Source: an uncultured Candidatus Saccharibacteria bacterium (GTDB taxonomy: Bacteria; Patescibacteriota; Minisyncoccia; Phycocordibacterales; Phycocordibacteraceae). From it: a stretch of DNA of 44,758 nt. This document shows, one piece after another, positions 12,618-17,015 of this stretch. The position numbers and the translations under genes are program-made. Location of the stretch: positions 1 through 44,758 of the forward strand of contig CAYVUT010000002.1 of NCBI GenBank assembly GCA_964455225.1, written 5' to 3'. Numbering within the stretch: the stretch's first letter is position 1; every line of letters begins with the position of its first letter. The notes beneath the pieces are model-generated. The model was given only the letters and a program-made list of their open reading frames with translations. It did no database searches and was not told the DNA's origin.

Positions 12618-13187
12618 ATGAACGAGACACGGGCGATATTCTTCGTCGGCAAGCCAGGATGCGGGAAGGGGACGCAGGCAAAACTCCTTGCCGCCCACAC
12701 CAGCTGGCCGATTTTTGCGTCCGGGCACCTCTTTCGCGAGATTGCGAAAGAAGACACGCCGGTCGGGCGCAAAGTGAAAGCAGAGAACGATGCGGGTATC
12801 CTTCAGCCCCACTGGTTTGCGATGTATCTCTACCTGCGGTCGCTCTTTTCCGCTTCGGACCAGCAGGGCGTCATTTTTGACGGTTTCAACCGCAAGGTTC
12901 CCGAGGCAGAGCTCGTGGTGGACTCCCTGAATTGGCTCGCGCGCCCATTTTCGGTCGTGTACATCAAGGTGTCGGACGAGGAGGTGCATCGCCGTCTCGA
13001 TGTGCGCAAAGAGACTTCGGGACGCGCGGATGATCATGTGGTCGAGGAGCGTATCAGGGAGTACTACACCCACACCGAGCCAGCGATAGAGGTGTTCCGC
13101 AAGGCGGGCGTCCTGGTTGAAATCAATGGCGAGCAATCGTCTGAAGCTATCGCGCGCGATATCCGCGCCGCGCTCAATCTCCAATGA
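12618..13187 (+). CDS. adk: Adenylate kinase (short LID, no zinc-binding Cys)
   Basis: ATG 12618 lies inside ORF 12159..13187 in the same frame. P-loop FFVGKPGCGKGTQAKLLA and DGFNRKVPEAE. Confidence 0.9.
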   Translation: MNETRAIFFVGKPGCGKGTQAKLLAAHTSWPIFASGHLFREIAKEDTPVGRKVKAENDAGILQPHWFAMYLYLRSLFSASDQQGVIFDGFNRKVPEAELVVDSLNWLARPFSVVYIKVSDEEVHRRLDVRKETSGRADDHVVEERIREYYTHTEPAIEVFRKAGVLVEINGEQSSEAIARDIRAALNLQ

Positions 13188-13951
13188 CCGTTACCAATAA
13201 AAAAGAGCGGGATATACTCATCGAAGCTGGCAAACGACTCGCTGCAGTACTTAGTGCGTGTGCCGAGAAAGCTGTGCCGGGAGTCTCCGCGGAGGAGCTC
13301 GACGATCTTGCTGAGCGTTTGATACGCGAGGGAGGTGATGAGCCCGCATTTCTCGGCTATACCCCTGAGGGCGCAGGTCGCGCATACCCAGCGACCCTGT
13401 GCGTTTCCATAAACGACGAAATCGTGCATGGTATCCCGAACGAATCGAAAAAGGTTCTTAGGCAGGGAGACATCGTGGGACTTGACCTTGGACTCGTACA
13501 CGAGGGCATCATCGTGGATGCCGCGGTAACGGTGCCGGTCGGCAAGGTTGATCAGACGTCGATCGCACTCATGCGCGCAACCGAAGACGCGCTTGCCGCG
13601 GGCATCGAAGCGGCGCGGGTGGGGAACCATATCGGCGACATTTCTCATGCGATCGAGAAGACCCTCAAGAATGCCGGTTTTGCGGTCGTGAAGCCGCTTG
13701 GCGGGCATGGGGTGGGGGACGCAGTGCACGAAGAGCCGTTCGTGCCAAATTATGGCAAGCCAGGCGAAGGTCCGGAGCTTACGGAGGGCATGGTGCTTGC
13801 GCTCGAGCCTATTTCAAGTGCTGGCAAGGGGGCAGTAACTCTCGCGCCTGACGGCTACACCTACCGTACCAAGGATGGTTCGCGCAGTGCGCACTTCGAG
13901 CACACCATTTTGATAGAAAAGAACGGTCCGCTCACCGTGACTGCCCGCTAA
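13184..13951 (+). CDS. map: Type I methionine aminopeptidase
   Basis: 255 aa. VHGIPN...GDIVGLDLG...HGVGDAVHEEP...LALEP...FEHT metal-ligand pattern. Overlaps adk by 4 nt (ATGA). Confidence 0.95.
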   Translation: MTVTNKKERDILIEAGKRLAAVLSACAEKAVPGVSAEELDDLAERLIREGGDEPAFLGYTPEGAGRAYPATLCVSINDEIVHGIPNESKKVLRQGDIVGLDLGLVHEGIIVDAAVTVPVGKVDQTSIALMRATEDALAAGIEAARVGNHIGDISHAIEKTLKNAGFAVVKPLGGHGVGDAVHEEPFVPNYGKPGEGPELTEGMVLALEPISSAGKGAVTLAPDGYTYRTKDGSRSAHFEHTILIEKNGPLTVTAR

Positions 13952-14080
13952 GCGCTTGCGCGTGCGTATCCGTGGGCTATTATGTAGGGACATGCGTCGC
14001 GCAACCTATCAGTTTTTTGGATTCTGGAACTTCAGAAATCTGAAAGCTGATTTTTGCGCTTAAGACTCTCCTTGAACTCA

Positions 14081-14119
14081 AACACCAGCTTTCAGAAGAA
14101 AGCTGGTGTTTGTTCTTTC
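14081..14119 (+). terminator. Strong hairpin with T-rich tail downstream of map
   Basis: 13-bp perfect stem AACACCAGCTTTC-AGAA-GAAAGCTGGTGTT (14081-14110), then TGTTCTTTC. Confidence 0.6.
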
Positions 14120-14131
14120 GGGAGGTGTGTT

Positions 14132-14359
14132 ATGCAGACGGTATTGAGGGCGCCAGGCTGGAATGACGACGAACCGGTGACTATGCTTATGCGTGAGAGA
14201 GGCATATACGAGCTCTCGTATGAAGAAGCAGAGCGGTGGCGGCTGGAAATCGAGGCGAACTTGAAGATTGAGGAAGCGCAATGCAATTGTCCACGCATCG
14301 ATTTCCTGAAGCGACTCCACGCACTTTTCGCGCCAGCCCCGCCCAGAAGAGTGGACTGA
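14132..14359 (+). CDS. Hypothetical small protein, 75 aa
   Basis: ATG 14132 is preceded by GGGAGG, in the same frame as ORF 14054..14359. Bracketed by the terminators at 14081-14119 and 14371-14399. No family recognised. Confidence 0.45.
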   Translation: MQTVLRAPGWNDDEPVTMLMRERGIYELSYEEAERWRLEIEANLKIEEAQCNCPRIDFLKRLHALFAPAPPRRVD

Positions 14360-14370
14360 TGTCCTTTTGA

Positions 14371-14399
14371 AAGACCCGCGCATCGCGGGTCTTTTGTTT
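14371..14399 (+). terminator. Hairpin terminator
   Basis: AGACCCGCG-CAT-CGCGGGTCT followed by TTTGTTTG. Confidence 0.6.
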
Positions 14400-14483
14400 G
14401 GTGGCGCGCCAGCGCTTGGTAGGGTATTCTTCTTCCATAGTCACTATAGTCGTCCGCCAGCTGGCGGATTTATTGCAAATACC

Positions 14484-14960
14484 ATGGCACACCCAAAAGA
14501 AGAGAAGACGCTTATTATCCTCAAGCCTGATGCGATGCATCGCGGTCTCGTGGGGCAGGTGGTGACGCGTTTTGAGCAGAAGGGGCTCAAGATCGTCGGC
14601 ATGAAGATGCTTGAGCTTCAGGACGCACTCGTCGAGGCGCACTACGCGCACATCAAGGACAAACCCTTCTTCGGCGGTATCAAGAAGTTCATGAAATCAG
14701 CGCCGGTAGTGGTGATCGCGCTCTCGGGCATCAATGCCGTTTCTGCAACCAGAGTCATTGTCGGACCCACTAAGGGTTATGAGGCGGCCGCAGGTACGAT
14801 TCGCGGCGACTTCTCGCTTTCGATGCAGTCGAACCTGGTGCACGCGTCAGATAGTGTTGAGGCAGGTACTGCTGAGGTAGAACGCTTCTTTACGCCAGAA
14901 GAGATATTCGACTACAAACGAAACGATTTCGAGTATATACACGCCGACGAGGCGTTCTAA
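14484..14960 (+). CDS. ndk: Nucleoside-diphosphate kinase
   Basis: ATG 14484 lies inside ORF 14367..14960 in the same frame. EKTLIILKPDAMHRGLVGQVVTRFEQKGLKIVGMK...NLVHASDS (active-site His). Confidence 0.93.
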   Translation: MAHPKEEKTLIILKPDAMHRGLVGQVVTRFEQKGLKIVGMKMLELQDALVEAHYAHIKDKPFFGGIKKFMKSAPVVVIALSGINAVSATRVIVGPTKGYEAAAGTIRGDFSLSMQSNLVHASDSVEAGTAEVERFFTPEEIFDYKRNDFEYIHADEAF

Positions 14961-14962
14961 CG

Positions 14963-14988
14963 AAAACCGGCGCTTCTGCGCCGGTTTT
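14963..14988 (+). terminator. Hairpin terminator after ndk
   Basis: AAAACCGGCGC-TTCT-GCGCCGGTTTT. Confidence 0.7.
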
Positions 14989-15032
14989 CGTTCTCCACAG
15001 GTCGTTCATGAAGCGGGGGTATAATGGAGTTT

Positions 15033-15245
15033 GGAGTCGTTCTTAAAAACGCAACTTGCCTCACCTACGGGAGTCTCATATCTACGTGTTTCCGGTATTG
15101 AGCCGAGCACAAAGTGCACGAGTTCACTCGCGCATTTCGTGCTCGGTTCCGACGAACACGGTGCGGACACCCACCTGGCATAAGAAAGTTGCTTCACCTA
15201 GGACGACTCTGCGAAAATCCTCACCATATCCTGGTGAGGATTTTT
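15033..15245 (+). ncRNA. Candidate small RNA (~210 nt), a long rod-like fold with a central bubble; possibly 6S-like
   Basis: TATAAT at 15020-15025 lies just upstream. Hand-paired helices: 15033-43/15200-10 (11 bp), 15051-57/15187-93 (7 bp), 15086-91/15153-58, 15102-10/15138-46 (9 bp). Unpaired C-rich bubble at 15061-83/15162-76. Intrinsic terminator ATCCTCACCA-TATCC-TGGTGAGGAT plus T5 at 15217-15245. The ORFs across it have no SD and overlap on both strands. Confidence 0.4.
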
Positions 15246-15273
15246 GCATGCGCGGTCATGGTAAAGTTGGCAG

Positions 15274-15645
15274 ATGTTTCGCTGGTCTTGGTTGTGCGCA
15301 GCGCTGGTCGGACTCGTCGGTCTTCTCACGGTCAACGCGTGGGCATTCGTGAATTATGTGTACTGGACGCATCGTTGGACGGACATTCCGATGCATCTCG
15401 CCGGCGGGCTCATCGTCGGGATCTTCCTTGTCGGATTCCTCAGGGACTACCGCCCAACCGCCTTTTTCATGCTCGTACTCGTCTTTGCCGTCGGTTGGGA
15501 GGTGTTTGAGTTTCTCTTTAATATTGCAGTCGAGGGGAGTGGTCGGACCTATGTGCTCGATACGGCATCTGACCTCGCGAATGGTGCAGTCGGTGCGACG
15601 CTCGCGTACTTTCTCGCACGCAAAACCGTATGGCACTTACGCTGA
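15274..15645 (+). CDS. Hypothetical integral membrane protein (~4 TM), 123 aa
   Basis: ATG 15274 with hydrophobic segments throughout. Overlaps the next gene by 16 nt. No family recognised. Confidence 0.6.
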   Translation: MFRWSWLCAALVGLVGLLTVNAWAFVNYVYWTHRWTDIPMHLAGGLIVGIFLVGFLRDYRPTAFFMLVLVFAVGWEVFEFLFNIAVEGSGRTYVLDTASDLANGAVGATLAYFLARKTVWHLR

Positions 15646-17015
15646 CTTTTTATGGCGGCGCCGGGAAAGTGACCGGCTCGAATTTTCTCATCGAATCCGG
15701 CGCAAGCAAGGTGCTTGTCGATTGCGGCATTGAGCAGGGAAGGGATTTTTGTGAAGAGTGCGTCTATGGACCATTTCCTTATGACGTGCGCTCGATCGAT
15801 GCGCTCATCGTCACGCATGCGCACCTTGATCATGTGGGGCGAGTGCCAAAACTCGTCAAAGACGGATTCCGAGGGAAGATCTTCATGACGCCGCCGACAC
15901 GGGATCTCGCAGAGCTTATTCTGCGAGATTCGGTCGGCATCCTGGGGATCGAGGCAAAGCGCCGAGGGCTTGCCCCCTTGTACGAGATGGAGGATGTCGA
16001 CCTCGCGCTCTCGCTCATCGAGACGCTCGAATACCACGTGGAAAGACGCGTCAGCGCCGAGCTCTCCATCTATTTCCGCAATACTGGTCACATTCTCGGT
16101 GCGGCAAGCGTGCGCATCACTGGTCCGGATGGCGAGACCGTCGTGTGTACGGGCGATATCGGCAACTCGCCCTCGCCACTCCTGCCAGACTTCGAGACGG
16201 TGCCCGACGCCGACGCGCTCGTCATGGAGAGCGTATACGGCGATCGGGTCCACCCGCAAAAGGAAGAGCGGGTGACGCAGTTGCGTGCGATCCTCAAGAG
16301 CGCGGTGGCTCGAGGGGGTGCCATCCTCATGCCCGCGTTTTCTATGGAGCGCACGCAGCTCATGCTCTATGAGCTTTCTAATCTGTTTGCGGCCGGTGAG
16401 CTTCCGAAGATACCGGTCTTTCTCGACTCACCGCTTGCGATCGGTGTCACGGCGCTTTATGAGAAGTGGGGAAAAGAATATTTCAAGGCAGAAGCGGAAG
16501 ACGAGCTGCGACGCGAGGGCAGTCTTTTTGAATTTCCGTTCCTTGAGAAGACGCGCGCTTCAGAAGACTCAAACCGTATTGCCGGAGTCCGGAATCCGAA
16601 GATCATCATCGCGGGTGCAGGTATGAGCCATGGCGGCCGCATAGGCCGATGGGAGCGCGAGTACCTGCCTGATAAAAATTCAACGCTCATCATGGTCGGG
16701 TACCAGGCTCCCGGTTCTCCCGGGCGACTGCTCTCCGATGGTGTCTCCCGCATCCGTATCGGTGGAGAAGAGGTGAGCGTGCGTGCGCGGGTTGAGCACC
16801 TTGAGGGCTGGTCTGCACATGCTGATCGGGACGGACTGCTCGCATTTGCGGAAGCGGCATTGCCGCGCGCGAAGGTCATCTTCACGGCGCTTGGCGAACC
16901 GGGCGCGGCCAAGTTCTTGGCGCAGCGCATTCATGACTATCTCGGCGGCAACGCCGTCGTTCCGCAGGTGGGGGAGCGGTGGGAGGTCACGAAAGATTCC
17001 GTGACGAAAAAATAA
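15630..17015 (+). CDS. Beta-CASP family metallo-beta-lactamase RNase (CPSF73-like)
   Basis: 461 aa. LTFYGGAGKVTGSNFLIE...VTHAHLDHVGRVP (HxHxDH)...GDIGNSPSPLL...AGMSHGGRI...LEGWSAHADRDGL. Confidence 0.85.
   Translation: MALTLTFYGGAGKVTGSNFLIESGASKVLVDCGIEQGRDFCEECVYGPFPYDVRSIDALIVTHAHLDHVGRVPKLVKDGFRGKIFMTPPTRDLAELILRDSVGILGIEAKRRGLAPLYEMEDVDLALSLIETLEYHVERRVSAELSIYFRNTGHILGAASVRITGPDGETVVCTGDIGNSPSPLLPDFETVPDADALVMESVYGDRVHPQKEERVTQLRAILKSAVARGGAILMPAFSMERTQLMLYELSNLFAAGELPKIPVFLDSPLAIGVTALYEKWGKEYFKAEAEDELRREGSLFEFPFLEKTRASEDSNRIAGVRNPKIIIAGAGMSHGGRIGRWEREYLPDKNSTLIMVGYQAPGSPGRLLSDGVSRIRIGGEEVSVRARVEHLEGWSAHADRDGLLAFAEAALPRAKVIFTALGEPGAAKFLAQRIHDYLGGNAVVPQVGERWEVTKDSVTKK

What the first reader, a model, noticed from the sequence alone, without database searches (positions are those of the whole stretch)
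15020..15245. Promoter-to-terminator unit encoding a ~210-nt rod-shaped RNA with a central bubble (6S-like candidate)
Between the ndk terminator and the next gene there is a consensus TATAAT (15020-25). About 180 nt follow that I can pair by hand into one long irregular helix:
- closing stem of 11 bp (15033-43/15200-10);
- 7 bp (15051-57/15187-93);
- an unpaired C-rich bubble of 23 nt against 15 nt (15061-83/15162-76);
- further helices up to a 9-bp apical stem (15102-10/15138-46).

A textbook intrinsic terminator follows (15217-45). The ORFs across the region overlap on both strands and lack SD sites. A closing stem, a large central bubble and an apical stem over roughly 185 nt is the 6S RNA architecture. 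A cis-acting leader for the membrane protein gene at 15274 is the alternative.
Basis: partly seen in the sequence, partly recalled or inferred. Interest (0 to 1): 0.6.

Follow-up and report, generated by a model that had tools for sequence, protein, structure and literature searches.

The report
Divergent 6S RNA gene, unannotated
The spacer after ndk holds this ultra-small candidate-phyla-radiation (CPR) bacterium's own gene for 6S RNA, the common bacterial RNA that mimics an open promoter to hold back RNA polymerase; it is ordinary in kind, but the standard Rfam model misses this lineage's version.

Summary
The promoter-to-terminator unit is real. TATAAT lies at 15020-25, a 178-nt rod at 15033-15210 and a 15-bp terminator hairpin at 15212-46. 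The fold is far more stable than shuffled sequence (z = -9.4).

It is one copy per genome, conserved across the genus, order and class, with strong covariation.

It is a divergent 6S RNA (SsrS):
- Rfam's 6S model (RF00013) does not detect this copy. It gives sub-threshold hits exactly on the homologues (up to 35 bits; cut-off 46.4) and nowhere else in those loci.
- The RNA shares the 6S signature GGGAG...CACCCACCUGG.
- Models I built from this family hit RF00013-certified 6S RNAs of other Patescibacteria classes at the same place.

The "C-rich bubble" (15061-83/15162-76) is mostly the conserved, covarying base of the terminal stem. The 6S central bubble is 15058-68/15173-85.

Rivals fail. The genome has no Ffh/FtsY, so this is not SRP RNA. 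A cis-leader does not fit a strong terminator and changing downstream genes.

Polymerase binding and product-RNA (pRNA) synthesis are inferred, not shown.

New member of a known kind; modest interest.

The parts
14963..14988 (+). ndk terminator hairpin (AAAACCGGCGC-UUCU-GCGCCGGUUUU). It marks the upstream boundary of the unit.
   Evidence: ndk ends at 14960.
15020..15025 (+). -10 box TATAAT of the 6S RNA gene. The predicted start is about 15031-33.
   Evidence: TATAMT stands at the same distance in all 16 genus homologues, most with TTGACA at -35. The own -35 is poor.
15033..15210 (+). 6S RNA core (178 nt), one irregular rod.
   Evidence: R1 119 bits. R2, built without own-genus sequences, hits 15028-15218 at E 6.2e-4. 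Fold z = -9.4. One copy in the genome.
15033..15043 (+). Outer closing stem P1, 5' arm (GGAGUCGUUCU). It pairs with 15200-15210.
   Evidence: 11 pairs, 98.8% of cells paired, 4 pairs with compensatory changes. U-G pairs fix the strand.
15051..15057 (+). Inner closing stem P2a, 5' arm (GCAACUU). It pairs with 15186-15192 (AAGUUGC).
   Evidence: A compensatory A-U to G-C change in G017. It aligns to the inner closing stem of RF00013.
15058..15068 (+). 5' strand of the central bubble (GCCUCACCUAC). It is the predicted template strand on which product RNA (pRNA) synthesis would start, reading towards 15033.
   Evidence: Aligned to the unpaired 5' bubble of RF00013 in the genus homologue. The template role is inferred from the 6S mechanism, not tested.
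15069..15172 (+). Terminal stem. It starts with the signature GGGAG (15069-73) and ends with GGACACCC. It holds an internal loop, helix P4 and a GGU..GA/CCGA internal-loop motif.
   Evidence: P3 GGG/CCC is invariant and the next pairs covary. Matches RF00013 consensus GGGagccc...gggcaCCC.
15100..15148 (+). Apical extension hairpin specific to this genome (about 40 nt more than most relatives).
   Evidence: Relatives have short UUCG- or GCAA-capped hairpins or other inserts here.
15173..15185 (+). 3' strand of the central bubble (ACCUGGCAUAAGA). CACCCACCUGG (15168-78) is the most conserved stretch of the family.
   Evidence: Invariant CCCAC.U. Matches RF00013 consensus CACCCACCUgg. GGCA 15177-80 can pair either with 15057-60 or with UGCU 15190-93.
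15186..15192 (+). Inner closing stem P2a, 3' arm (AAGUUGC).
15200..15210 (+). Outer closing stem P1, 3' arm (AGGACGACUCU).
15212..15246 (+). Terminator hairpin: 15-bp stem CGAAAAUCCUCACCA / UGGUGAGGAUUUUUG, loop UAUCC. The U-run lies inside the 3' arm.
   Evidence: Every homologue has a hairpin of different sequence at this place.

Best explanation
This is the organism's 6S RNA gene (ssrS), a stand-alone small-RNA gene with its own promoter and terminator.

Layout, shown by homology and covariation:
- A closing stem made of P1, an internal loop and P2a.
- A central bubble of 11 nt against 13 nt.
- A long terminal stem that begins GGGAG and ends CACCC.

Mechanism, inferred by homology to studied 6S RNAs:
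- The rod mimics an open promoter.
- It occupies the active-site cleft of the RpoD-type RNA polymerase holoenzyme and holds it back when growth slows.
- When nucleotides return, the polymerase copies the 5' bubble strand and the 5' arm of the closing stem (about 15065 back towards 15040) into a short product RNA (pRNA).
- That unzips P2a. The freed 3' arm can then form the small hairpin GGCA/UGCU (15177-80/15190-93), and the RNA is released.

Shown here: gene anatomy, conservation, structure, and homology to 6S RNA. Inferred: polymerase binding, pRNA synthesis and the release switch.
For: - Stability: fold z = -9.4.
- Own-genus conservation: present in 14 of 24 other genomes of the genus by BLAST. 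All copies have promoter, rod and terminator.
- Wider conservation: R1 finds one copy per genome in 34 of 301 genomes of the order. R2 finds one copy in 97 of 301 genomes of the class, and finds the window copy although no own-genus sequence was in the model.
- Covariation, genus: 93% of cells paired, 14 pairs with compensatory changes, 0 of 500 shuffles as good, slid controls about 47% paired.
- Covariation, order: 89% of cells paired, 23 of 31 pairs with compensatory changes, 0 of 500 shuffles as good.
- RF00013 sub-threshold hits lie exactly on the RNA and on its strand in 8 of 20 order-level loci (best 31.5 bits). No RF00013 hit lies elsewhere in those 60 kb.
- In the own genus, G005 scores 35.1 bits full length (E 7.7e-6 on 261 nt) and G017 scores 21.3 bits.
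- Those alignments put GGGAG and CACCCACCUGG on the same consensus positions of 6S.
- RF00013 finds 6S RNAs in other classes of the phylum: 8 of 301 genomes above the cut-off.
- R2 hits 12 of 20 of those loci at E < 0.01, full length or nearly so, at the same place. Four of them are above Rfam's cut-off: L057, L058, L060, L062.
- R1's nine best hits in those loci are also on the 6S.
- The target exists: an RpoD homologue, 49% identical over regions 2-4.
- No other 6S candidate in the genome.
Against: - RF00013 does not detect the window copy at all: none at E <= 10 on 361 nt, none in the whole genome. No relative in the class reaches the 46.4-bit gathering score.
- R2 does not hit E. coli ssrS at E <= 1.
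- In this genus the bubble is small. Four further pairs (UGCY/RGCA) could close it to about 8 nt against 4 nt.
- The closing stem is short: 11 + 7 bp.
- There is no expression, end-mapping, binding or pRNA data.
Confidence: 0.86

Rival explanations
1. The RNA is derived from 6S but no longer acts on RNA polymerase. It works with its conserved neighbours, for example as regulator, decoy or substrate of the beta-CASP (RNase J/CPSF-like) ribonuclease encoded downstream.
For: Gene order is map-ndk-RNA-(small membrane protein)-beta-CASP RNase in nearly all order-level loci. ndk is upstream in 26 of 30 class-level loci, and the RNase is downstream in about half.
Against: - The conserved positions are the 6S signature positions.
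- The RNase is missing within 1.5 kb in many class-level loci.
- The RF00013-positive 6S RNAs of other classes have neither neighbour.
- Small CPR genomes keep gene order in general, so synteny alone is weak evidence.
Confidence: 0.07
2. It is a cis-acting leader (attenuator or riboswitch) of the downstream gene: the membrane protein at 15274 or the beta-CASP RNase at 15630.
For: It lies directly upstream of these genes on the same strand.
Against: - A 15-bp terminator hairpin follows the rod in every genome, with no alternative anti-terminator pairing evident.
- The downstream gene changes (membrane protein, RNase, rplT, others) while the RNA stays.
- No riboswitch or leader family matches.
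- It is homologous to a trans-acting RNA.
Confidence: 0.03
3. It is a divergent signal-recognition-particle (SRP, 4.5S) RNA, since no SRP RNA is detectable in this genome.
For: - RF00169 and RF01854 find nothing in the genome, and RF00169 finds nothing in 40 relatives.
- The apical part of some relatives (GGUGAAGUCC-GCAA-GGACAUCC) looks superficially like SRP helix 8.
Against: - The protein partners are absent. There is no SRP54-type GTPase in 31 genomes of the order and only 1 of 301 genomes in the phylum has one.
- There is no DTAGR motif in any frame. E. coli Ffh finds nothing by tblastn (best E 0.12).
- The literature notes the loss of SRP subunits in many CPR bacteria (PMC8080830).
- The apex is the most variable part: UUCG, GCAA and long inserts. 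In SRP RNA it is the conserved part (my own knowledge of SRP RNA).
Confidence: 0.01
4. It is a chance hairpin-rich spacer, or a small protein-coding gene.
For: Several ORFs of 38-131 aa cross the region on both strands.
Against: z = -9.4. Conserved across a class with compensatory changes. Indels of many lengths in the apical part break every frame.
Confidence: 0.01

Closest known systems
6S RNA / SsrS (Rfam RF00013), e.g. E. coli ssrS
   Same: - A stand-alone gene with promoter and terminator, one copy per genome.
- A rod of closing stem, central bubble and terminal stem.
- An AU-rich unpaired 5' bubble strand in the order-level relatives.
- The terminal stem opens with GGGAG and closes with CACCC.
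- The 3' bubble strand starts ACCU and can form a small hairpin. E. coli has A-CCUUG-AAC-CAAGG. Order-level relatives have A-CCUAG-N5-8-CUAGG.
- A GGUGA-type motif in the terminal stem.
   Different: - Scores below Rfam's cut-off, and the window copy is not detected at all.
- The closing stem is much shorter: about 25 nt per strand here (15033-57) against about 41 in E. coli, by my count on the sequence.
- In this genus the bubble is only 11 nt against 13 nt and can be partly closed.
- A 49-nt apical extension in this genome.
- Different neighbours: ndk and a beta-CASP RNase, not zapA and fau.
RF00013-positive 6S RNAs of other Patescibacteria classes (loci L055-L074)
   Same: Same phylum. Lengths of 143-197 nt are similar. 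Same signature. Hit full length by the model of this family, with E from 3e-7 to 7e-3.
   Different: They reach or approach Rfam's cut-off (up to 73 bits). They lie in other gene neighbourhoods, without ndk or the beta-CASP RNase.
Bacillus subtilis 6S-1 (BsrA) and its pRNA-induced rearrangement (from my own knowledge, not checked here)
   Same: Release is thought to depend on a hairpin that forms in the 3' bubble strand once the product RNA (pRNA) unzips the closing stem. Here GGCA/UGCU (15177-80/15190-93) could form in the same way, and its first pair covaries (AU 5, GU 5, GC 4).
   Different: No pRNA or rearrangement has been observed here. The same nucleotide (alignment column 155) also covaries with the 5' strand, so the two pairings cannot be told apart by sequence.

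Membership tests
6S RNA / SsrS | Detected by the curated covariance model RF00013 at or above its gathering score of 46.4 bits. This is an operational detection threshold, not a biological property. | tested here: not met
   - Window copy: no hit at E <= 10 on 361 nt, and none in the whole genome.
- Relatives: 19-35 bits, all exactly on the RNA.
- I treat this as a sensitivity limit of the model. RF00013 was also silent in 9 of 14 control genomes.
6S RNA / SsrS | Homology to established 6S RNAs | tested here: met
   Chain of profile hits:
- Own-genus model R1 finds the order-level homologues.
- Their model R2 finds the window copy.
- R2 hits 12 of 20 RF00013-identified 6S RNAs at E < 0.01 at the same coordinates, four of them above Rfam's cut-off.
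- RF00013 aligns full length to genus member G005 at 35.1 bits, E 7.7e-6.
6S RNA / SsrS | A rod of about 150-200 nt made of closing stem, largely unpaired central bubble and long terminal stem | tested here: met
   - The core is 178 nt. P1+P2a, a bubble of 11 nt against 13 nt, and a 104-nt terminal stem.
- In order-level relatives the 5' bubble strand is 16-20 nt unpaired and the 3' strand holds a small hairpin.
- Helices are supported by covariation.
- Caveat: four extra pairs could shrink the bubble in this genus.
6S RNA / SsrS | Conserved sequence at the bubble/terminal-stem junction, as in the RF00013 consensus (GGGagcc ... ggcaCCCACCUgg) | tested here: met
   GGGAG at 15069-73 and CACCCACCUGG at 15168-78. 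Both are invariant or nearly so in genus and order, and they align to those consensus positions.
6S RNA / SsrS | Binds the housekeeping-sigma RNA polymerase holoenzyme | not testable with these tools
   Only the presence of an RpoD homologue could be shown.
6S RNA / SsrS | Serves as template for short product RNAs (pRNA) that trigger release | not testable with these tools
   This needs small-RNA sequencing or in vitro transcription.
Bacterial SRP RNA (RF00169 / RF01854) | Match to the SRP RNA models, with conserved helix-8 loops and an apical tetraloop | tested here: not met
   No match in the window region or the genome or in 40 relatives. The apex is variable.
Bacterial SRP RNA (RF00169 / RF01854) | The partner protein Ffh is present | tested here: not met

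The most novel reading that the evidence does not exclude
The RNA is 6S-derived but forms a functional module with its class-wide neighbours: ndk upstream and a beta-CASP RNase J/CPSF-like nuclease downstream. One possibility is that the nuclease is the dedicated enzyme that matures or clears 6S RNA and its product RNAs. Another is that the RNA regulates the main RNA-decay enzyme of these minimal cells. A milder version: in this genus the 3' bubble strand is a built-in two-state switch, because column 155 covaries with both alternative partners.
Probability: 0.08. Interest if true: 0.6.

Novelty: new member of a known kind. Interest (0 to 1): 0.3.

Why it matters
- Standard annotation (Rfam RF00013 at its gathering score) finds no 6S RNA in this whole class of Patescibacteria. 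These genomes therefore look as if they lack the regulator.
- The family models built here recover one copy in about a third of sampled genomes, even with strict filters. A lineage-specific model would close that annotation gap.
- Organisms of about 0.6 Mb, with one clear RpoD homologue plus one weak sigma-like match and no SRP, still keep 6S RNA. That argues the RNA-polymerase decoy is part of a near-minimal regulatory kit.
- The shortened closing stem and small bubble give natural boundary cases for how little RNA is enough to mimic an open promoter.

Tried and rejected
- Rfam at gathering score on the window: only a tRNA. Rfam at E <= 10 on 14940-15300: only terminator-like noise. RF00013 on the whole genome: nothing.
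- SRP RNA: I considered it seriously because RF00169 and RF01854 are silent in the genome and in relatives. I rejected it because Ffh and FtsY are absent and the apex is variable.
- Reverse strand: it folds almost as well (z = -8.3). I rejected it on four grounds: promoter and terminator orientation, G-U pairs in P1, much lower model scores on the - strand (18 against 119 bits), and RF00013 hits only on the RNA strand.
- Mobile element or guide RNA: I considered it because G010 has three copies. All three sit in the same ndk-RNA-RNase context on three contigs of a MAG (metagenome-assembled genome) with 5% contamination, so strain variants are more likely. All other genomes have one copy.
- Local 3' hairpin instead of P2 in this genus: not rejected. 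It is as well supported at its one variable pair. G017 keeps P2a by a compensatory change while losing the hairpin.
- R2 against E. coli ssrS: no hit at E <= 1.
- Literature: no paper in the library pairs '6S RNA' with candidate phyla radiation, and the one paper pairing it with Patescibacteria is unrelated.

Full report
**What is in the sequence**

ndk ends at 14960 and is followed by a clean terminator hairpin at 14963-88. A consensus TATAAT stands at 15020-25. The consensus scan found no full promoter, because this copy has no good -35.

From 15033 to 15210 the + strand folds into one irregular rod, followed by a 15-bp hairpin at 15212-46. The minimum free energy is -98.3 kcal/mol. Dinucleotide shuffles give -57.1 +/- 4.4, so z = -9.4, and 0 of 200 shuffles fold as well. 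The reverse strand folds nearly as well, as any long hairpin does.

**Is it conserved?**

BLAST finds pieces of the region in 14 of 24 other genomes of the genus. When extracted, every copy has the same parts:
- a TATAMT box, usually with TTGACA 17 nt upstream;
- the rod;
- a terminator hairpin of unrelated sequence.

In an alignment of 15 copies (A1), 93% of cells in the rod are paired and 14 of 34 pairs show compensatory changes. None of 500 column shuffles reaches this, and slid registers give only about 47% paired. U-G pairs in P1 fix the strand as +.

A covariance model of the genus (R1) finds exactly one copy per genome in 34 of 301 genomes of the order, under strict filters. These more distant copies show the general layout:
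- a closing stem of about 20 bp (P0+P1);
- an AU-rich unpaired 5' strand of 16-20 nt;
- a terminal stem that opens GGGAGYY and closes RRCACCC;
- a GAUGA/CUGA internal loop;
- a variable capped hairpin;
- on the 3' strand, A followed by a small hairpin CCUAG-N-CUAGG.

In that MAFFT alignment (A3), 23 of 31 pairs show compensatory changes, again with 0 of 500 shuffles as good.

A model of these order-level copies (R2) contains no own-genus sequence. It finds the window copy at 15028-15218 (E 6.2e-4). It also finds one copy in 97 of 301 genomes of the class.

**What is it?**

Rfam finds nothing at its thresholds. At permissive thresholds the picture changes.
- RF00013 (6S RNA) hits 8 of 20 order-level loci, always on the RNA and on its strand, and nowhere else in 60 kb (best 31.5 bits).
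- It hits two own-genus members. G005 scores 35.1 bits over the full model, E 7.7e-6 on 261 nt.
- The printed alignments put this family's two most conserved blocks, GGGAG and CACCCACCUGG, on the same consensus letters of 6S RNA.
- They also map P2a to the inner closing stem, and 15058-68/15173-85 to the central bubble.

RF00013 does recognise 6S RNAs in other classes of the same phylum: 8 of 301 genomes above the cut-off and 28 at E <= 0.1. It recognises none in this class.

The reciprocal test works.
- R2 hits 12 of those 20 loci at E < 0.01, full length or nearly so, at the 6S coordinates. Four of them pass Rfam's cut-off.
- The nine best hits of the genus model R1 in those loci are also on the 6S.

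I therefore file the RNA as a divergent 6S RNA. The E. coli ssrS sequence fetched from the record has the same junction layout: terminal stem, then A-CCUUG-AAC-CAAGG, then closing stem. It also has an AU-rich 5' bubble. R2 does not reach it statistically.

The closing stem, the 7-bp helix (3' arm off by one), the apical stem, the terminator and the -10 box are right.

The "C-rich bubble" at 15061-83/15162-76 is not a bubble. GGGAGUC (15069-75) pairs with GGAC-A-CCC (15165-72). This is the invariant or covarying base of the terminal stem. The central bubble lies at 15058-68 against 15173-85.

In this genus four more pairs (UGCY/RGCA) could narrow the bubble. The variable nucleotide at alignment column 155 covaries equally well with two partners:
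- the 5' strand (CG 6, UA 5, UG 4);
- the 3' arm of P2a (AU 5, GU 5, GC 4).

The second pairing would form the small hairpin GGCA/UGCU.

This is what a 6S release switch would look like: product RNA (pRNA) unzips P2a, and the freed 3' arm folds back. It is inference only. G017 keeps P2a by a compensatory A-U to G-C change while losing the hairpin.

**Rivals**

- SRP RNA. It deserved a look because no SRP RNA is detectable in the genome or in 40 relatives. But there is no Ffh or FtsY either. A published note says SRP subunits are missing in many CPR bacteria (PMC8080830). The apex of the rod is its most variable part.
- A cis leader. It does not fit a strong terminator and changing downstream genes.
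- Coding or chance. Both are excluded by indels and covariation.
- A 6S-derived RNA working with its neighbours cannot be excluded. ndk is upstream in 26 of 30 class-level loci, and the beta-CASP RNase is downstream in about half. The 6S RNAs of other classes have neither neighbour, and synteny is generally sticky in these genomes.

**Mechanism**

The following is inferred from the family. The RNA mimics an open promoter and sequesters the RpoD holoenzyme. An RpoD homologue is present. Release would follow pRNA synthesis templated from about 15065 towards 15040. Nothing here tests binding, pRNA synthesis or expression.

**Earlier notes of this scan**

After reaching this reading I looked them up. 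Several agents working on other CPR genomes describe the same ndk-linked RNA as a divergent or compact 6S RNA. One left it unclassified. These notes agree with my reading but are not independent evidence.

**Verdict**

A real gene of ordinary kind, and a new, Rfam-invisible member of the 6S RNA family. Interest 0.3.

Noticed in passing
whole genome G000 (window = C2); relatives G001-G040; phylum sample: The SRP system seems to be absent.
- No SRP RNA (RF00169, RF01854).
- No SRP54-type GTPase (Ffh, FtsY) in the own genome, by Pfam search, motif scan and E. coli Ffh tblastn.
- None in 31 genomes of the order, and only 1 of 301 genomes of the phylum has one.
- The loss is mentioned in the literature for many CPR bacteria (PMC8080830).
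   Followed up: partly
L020:1122-1328 (G010:C21) and L023:1501-1712 (G323:C22): Two genus members carry an extra hairpin of about 60 nt at the apex of the 6S terminal stem. The two share stem sequence (CCCUUACCACUUUUGA...UCAAAAGUGGUAAGGG). The window copy has a different 49-nt extension at the same place (15100-15148). The apex therefore accepts insertions. Whether the shared insert is a small mobile hairpin was not checked.
   Followed up: no
window 14984-15001; same position in L002-L020: A conserved motif, GTTTTCCMCAG, stands about 20-35 nt upstream of the -10 box of the 6S gene in most genus members. Here it is weakened to TTTTCGTTCTCCACAGG. It overlaps the tail of the ndk terminator. It may be an UP-like promoter element or a terminator tail.
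   Followed up: no
window 15092-15101 / 15147-15156; alignment A3 columns 84-88 / 110-115: The terminal stem holds a conserved asymmetric loop. It reads GAUGA opposite CUGA in the order, and GGUGA opposite CCGA in the genus. This looks like tandem sheared G-A pairs (K-turn or C/D-box-like). It aligns to the gGuGuGc...gCcuaAA part of the Rfam 6S consensus, and E. coli has UGGUGAGC there.
   Followed up: no
G010 contigs C59, C55, C21 (L004, L017, L020): One metagenome-assembled genome (5% contamination) holds three copies of the ndk-6S-RNase stretch on three contigs, with slightly different sequences. This probably reflects co-assembled strains, not paralogues.
   Followed up: partly
window 13184-17015 and loci L002-L049, L075-L104: The gene order map-ndk-6S RNA-(123-aa membrane protein)-beta-CASP MBL-fold RNase is kept across the order and largely across the class. 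It is absent around the 6S genes of other Patescibacteria classes.
   Followed up: partly
L043:1676-1792 (G064:C12): About 40 nt downstream of that genome's 6S gene, a long hairpin matches Rfam WsnRNA46 (Wolbachia sRNA 46) at 44 bits, E 5e-6, below its 65-bit cut-off. It is probably a long inverted repeat, not a true homologue.
   Followed up: no
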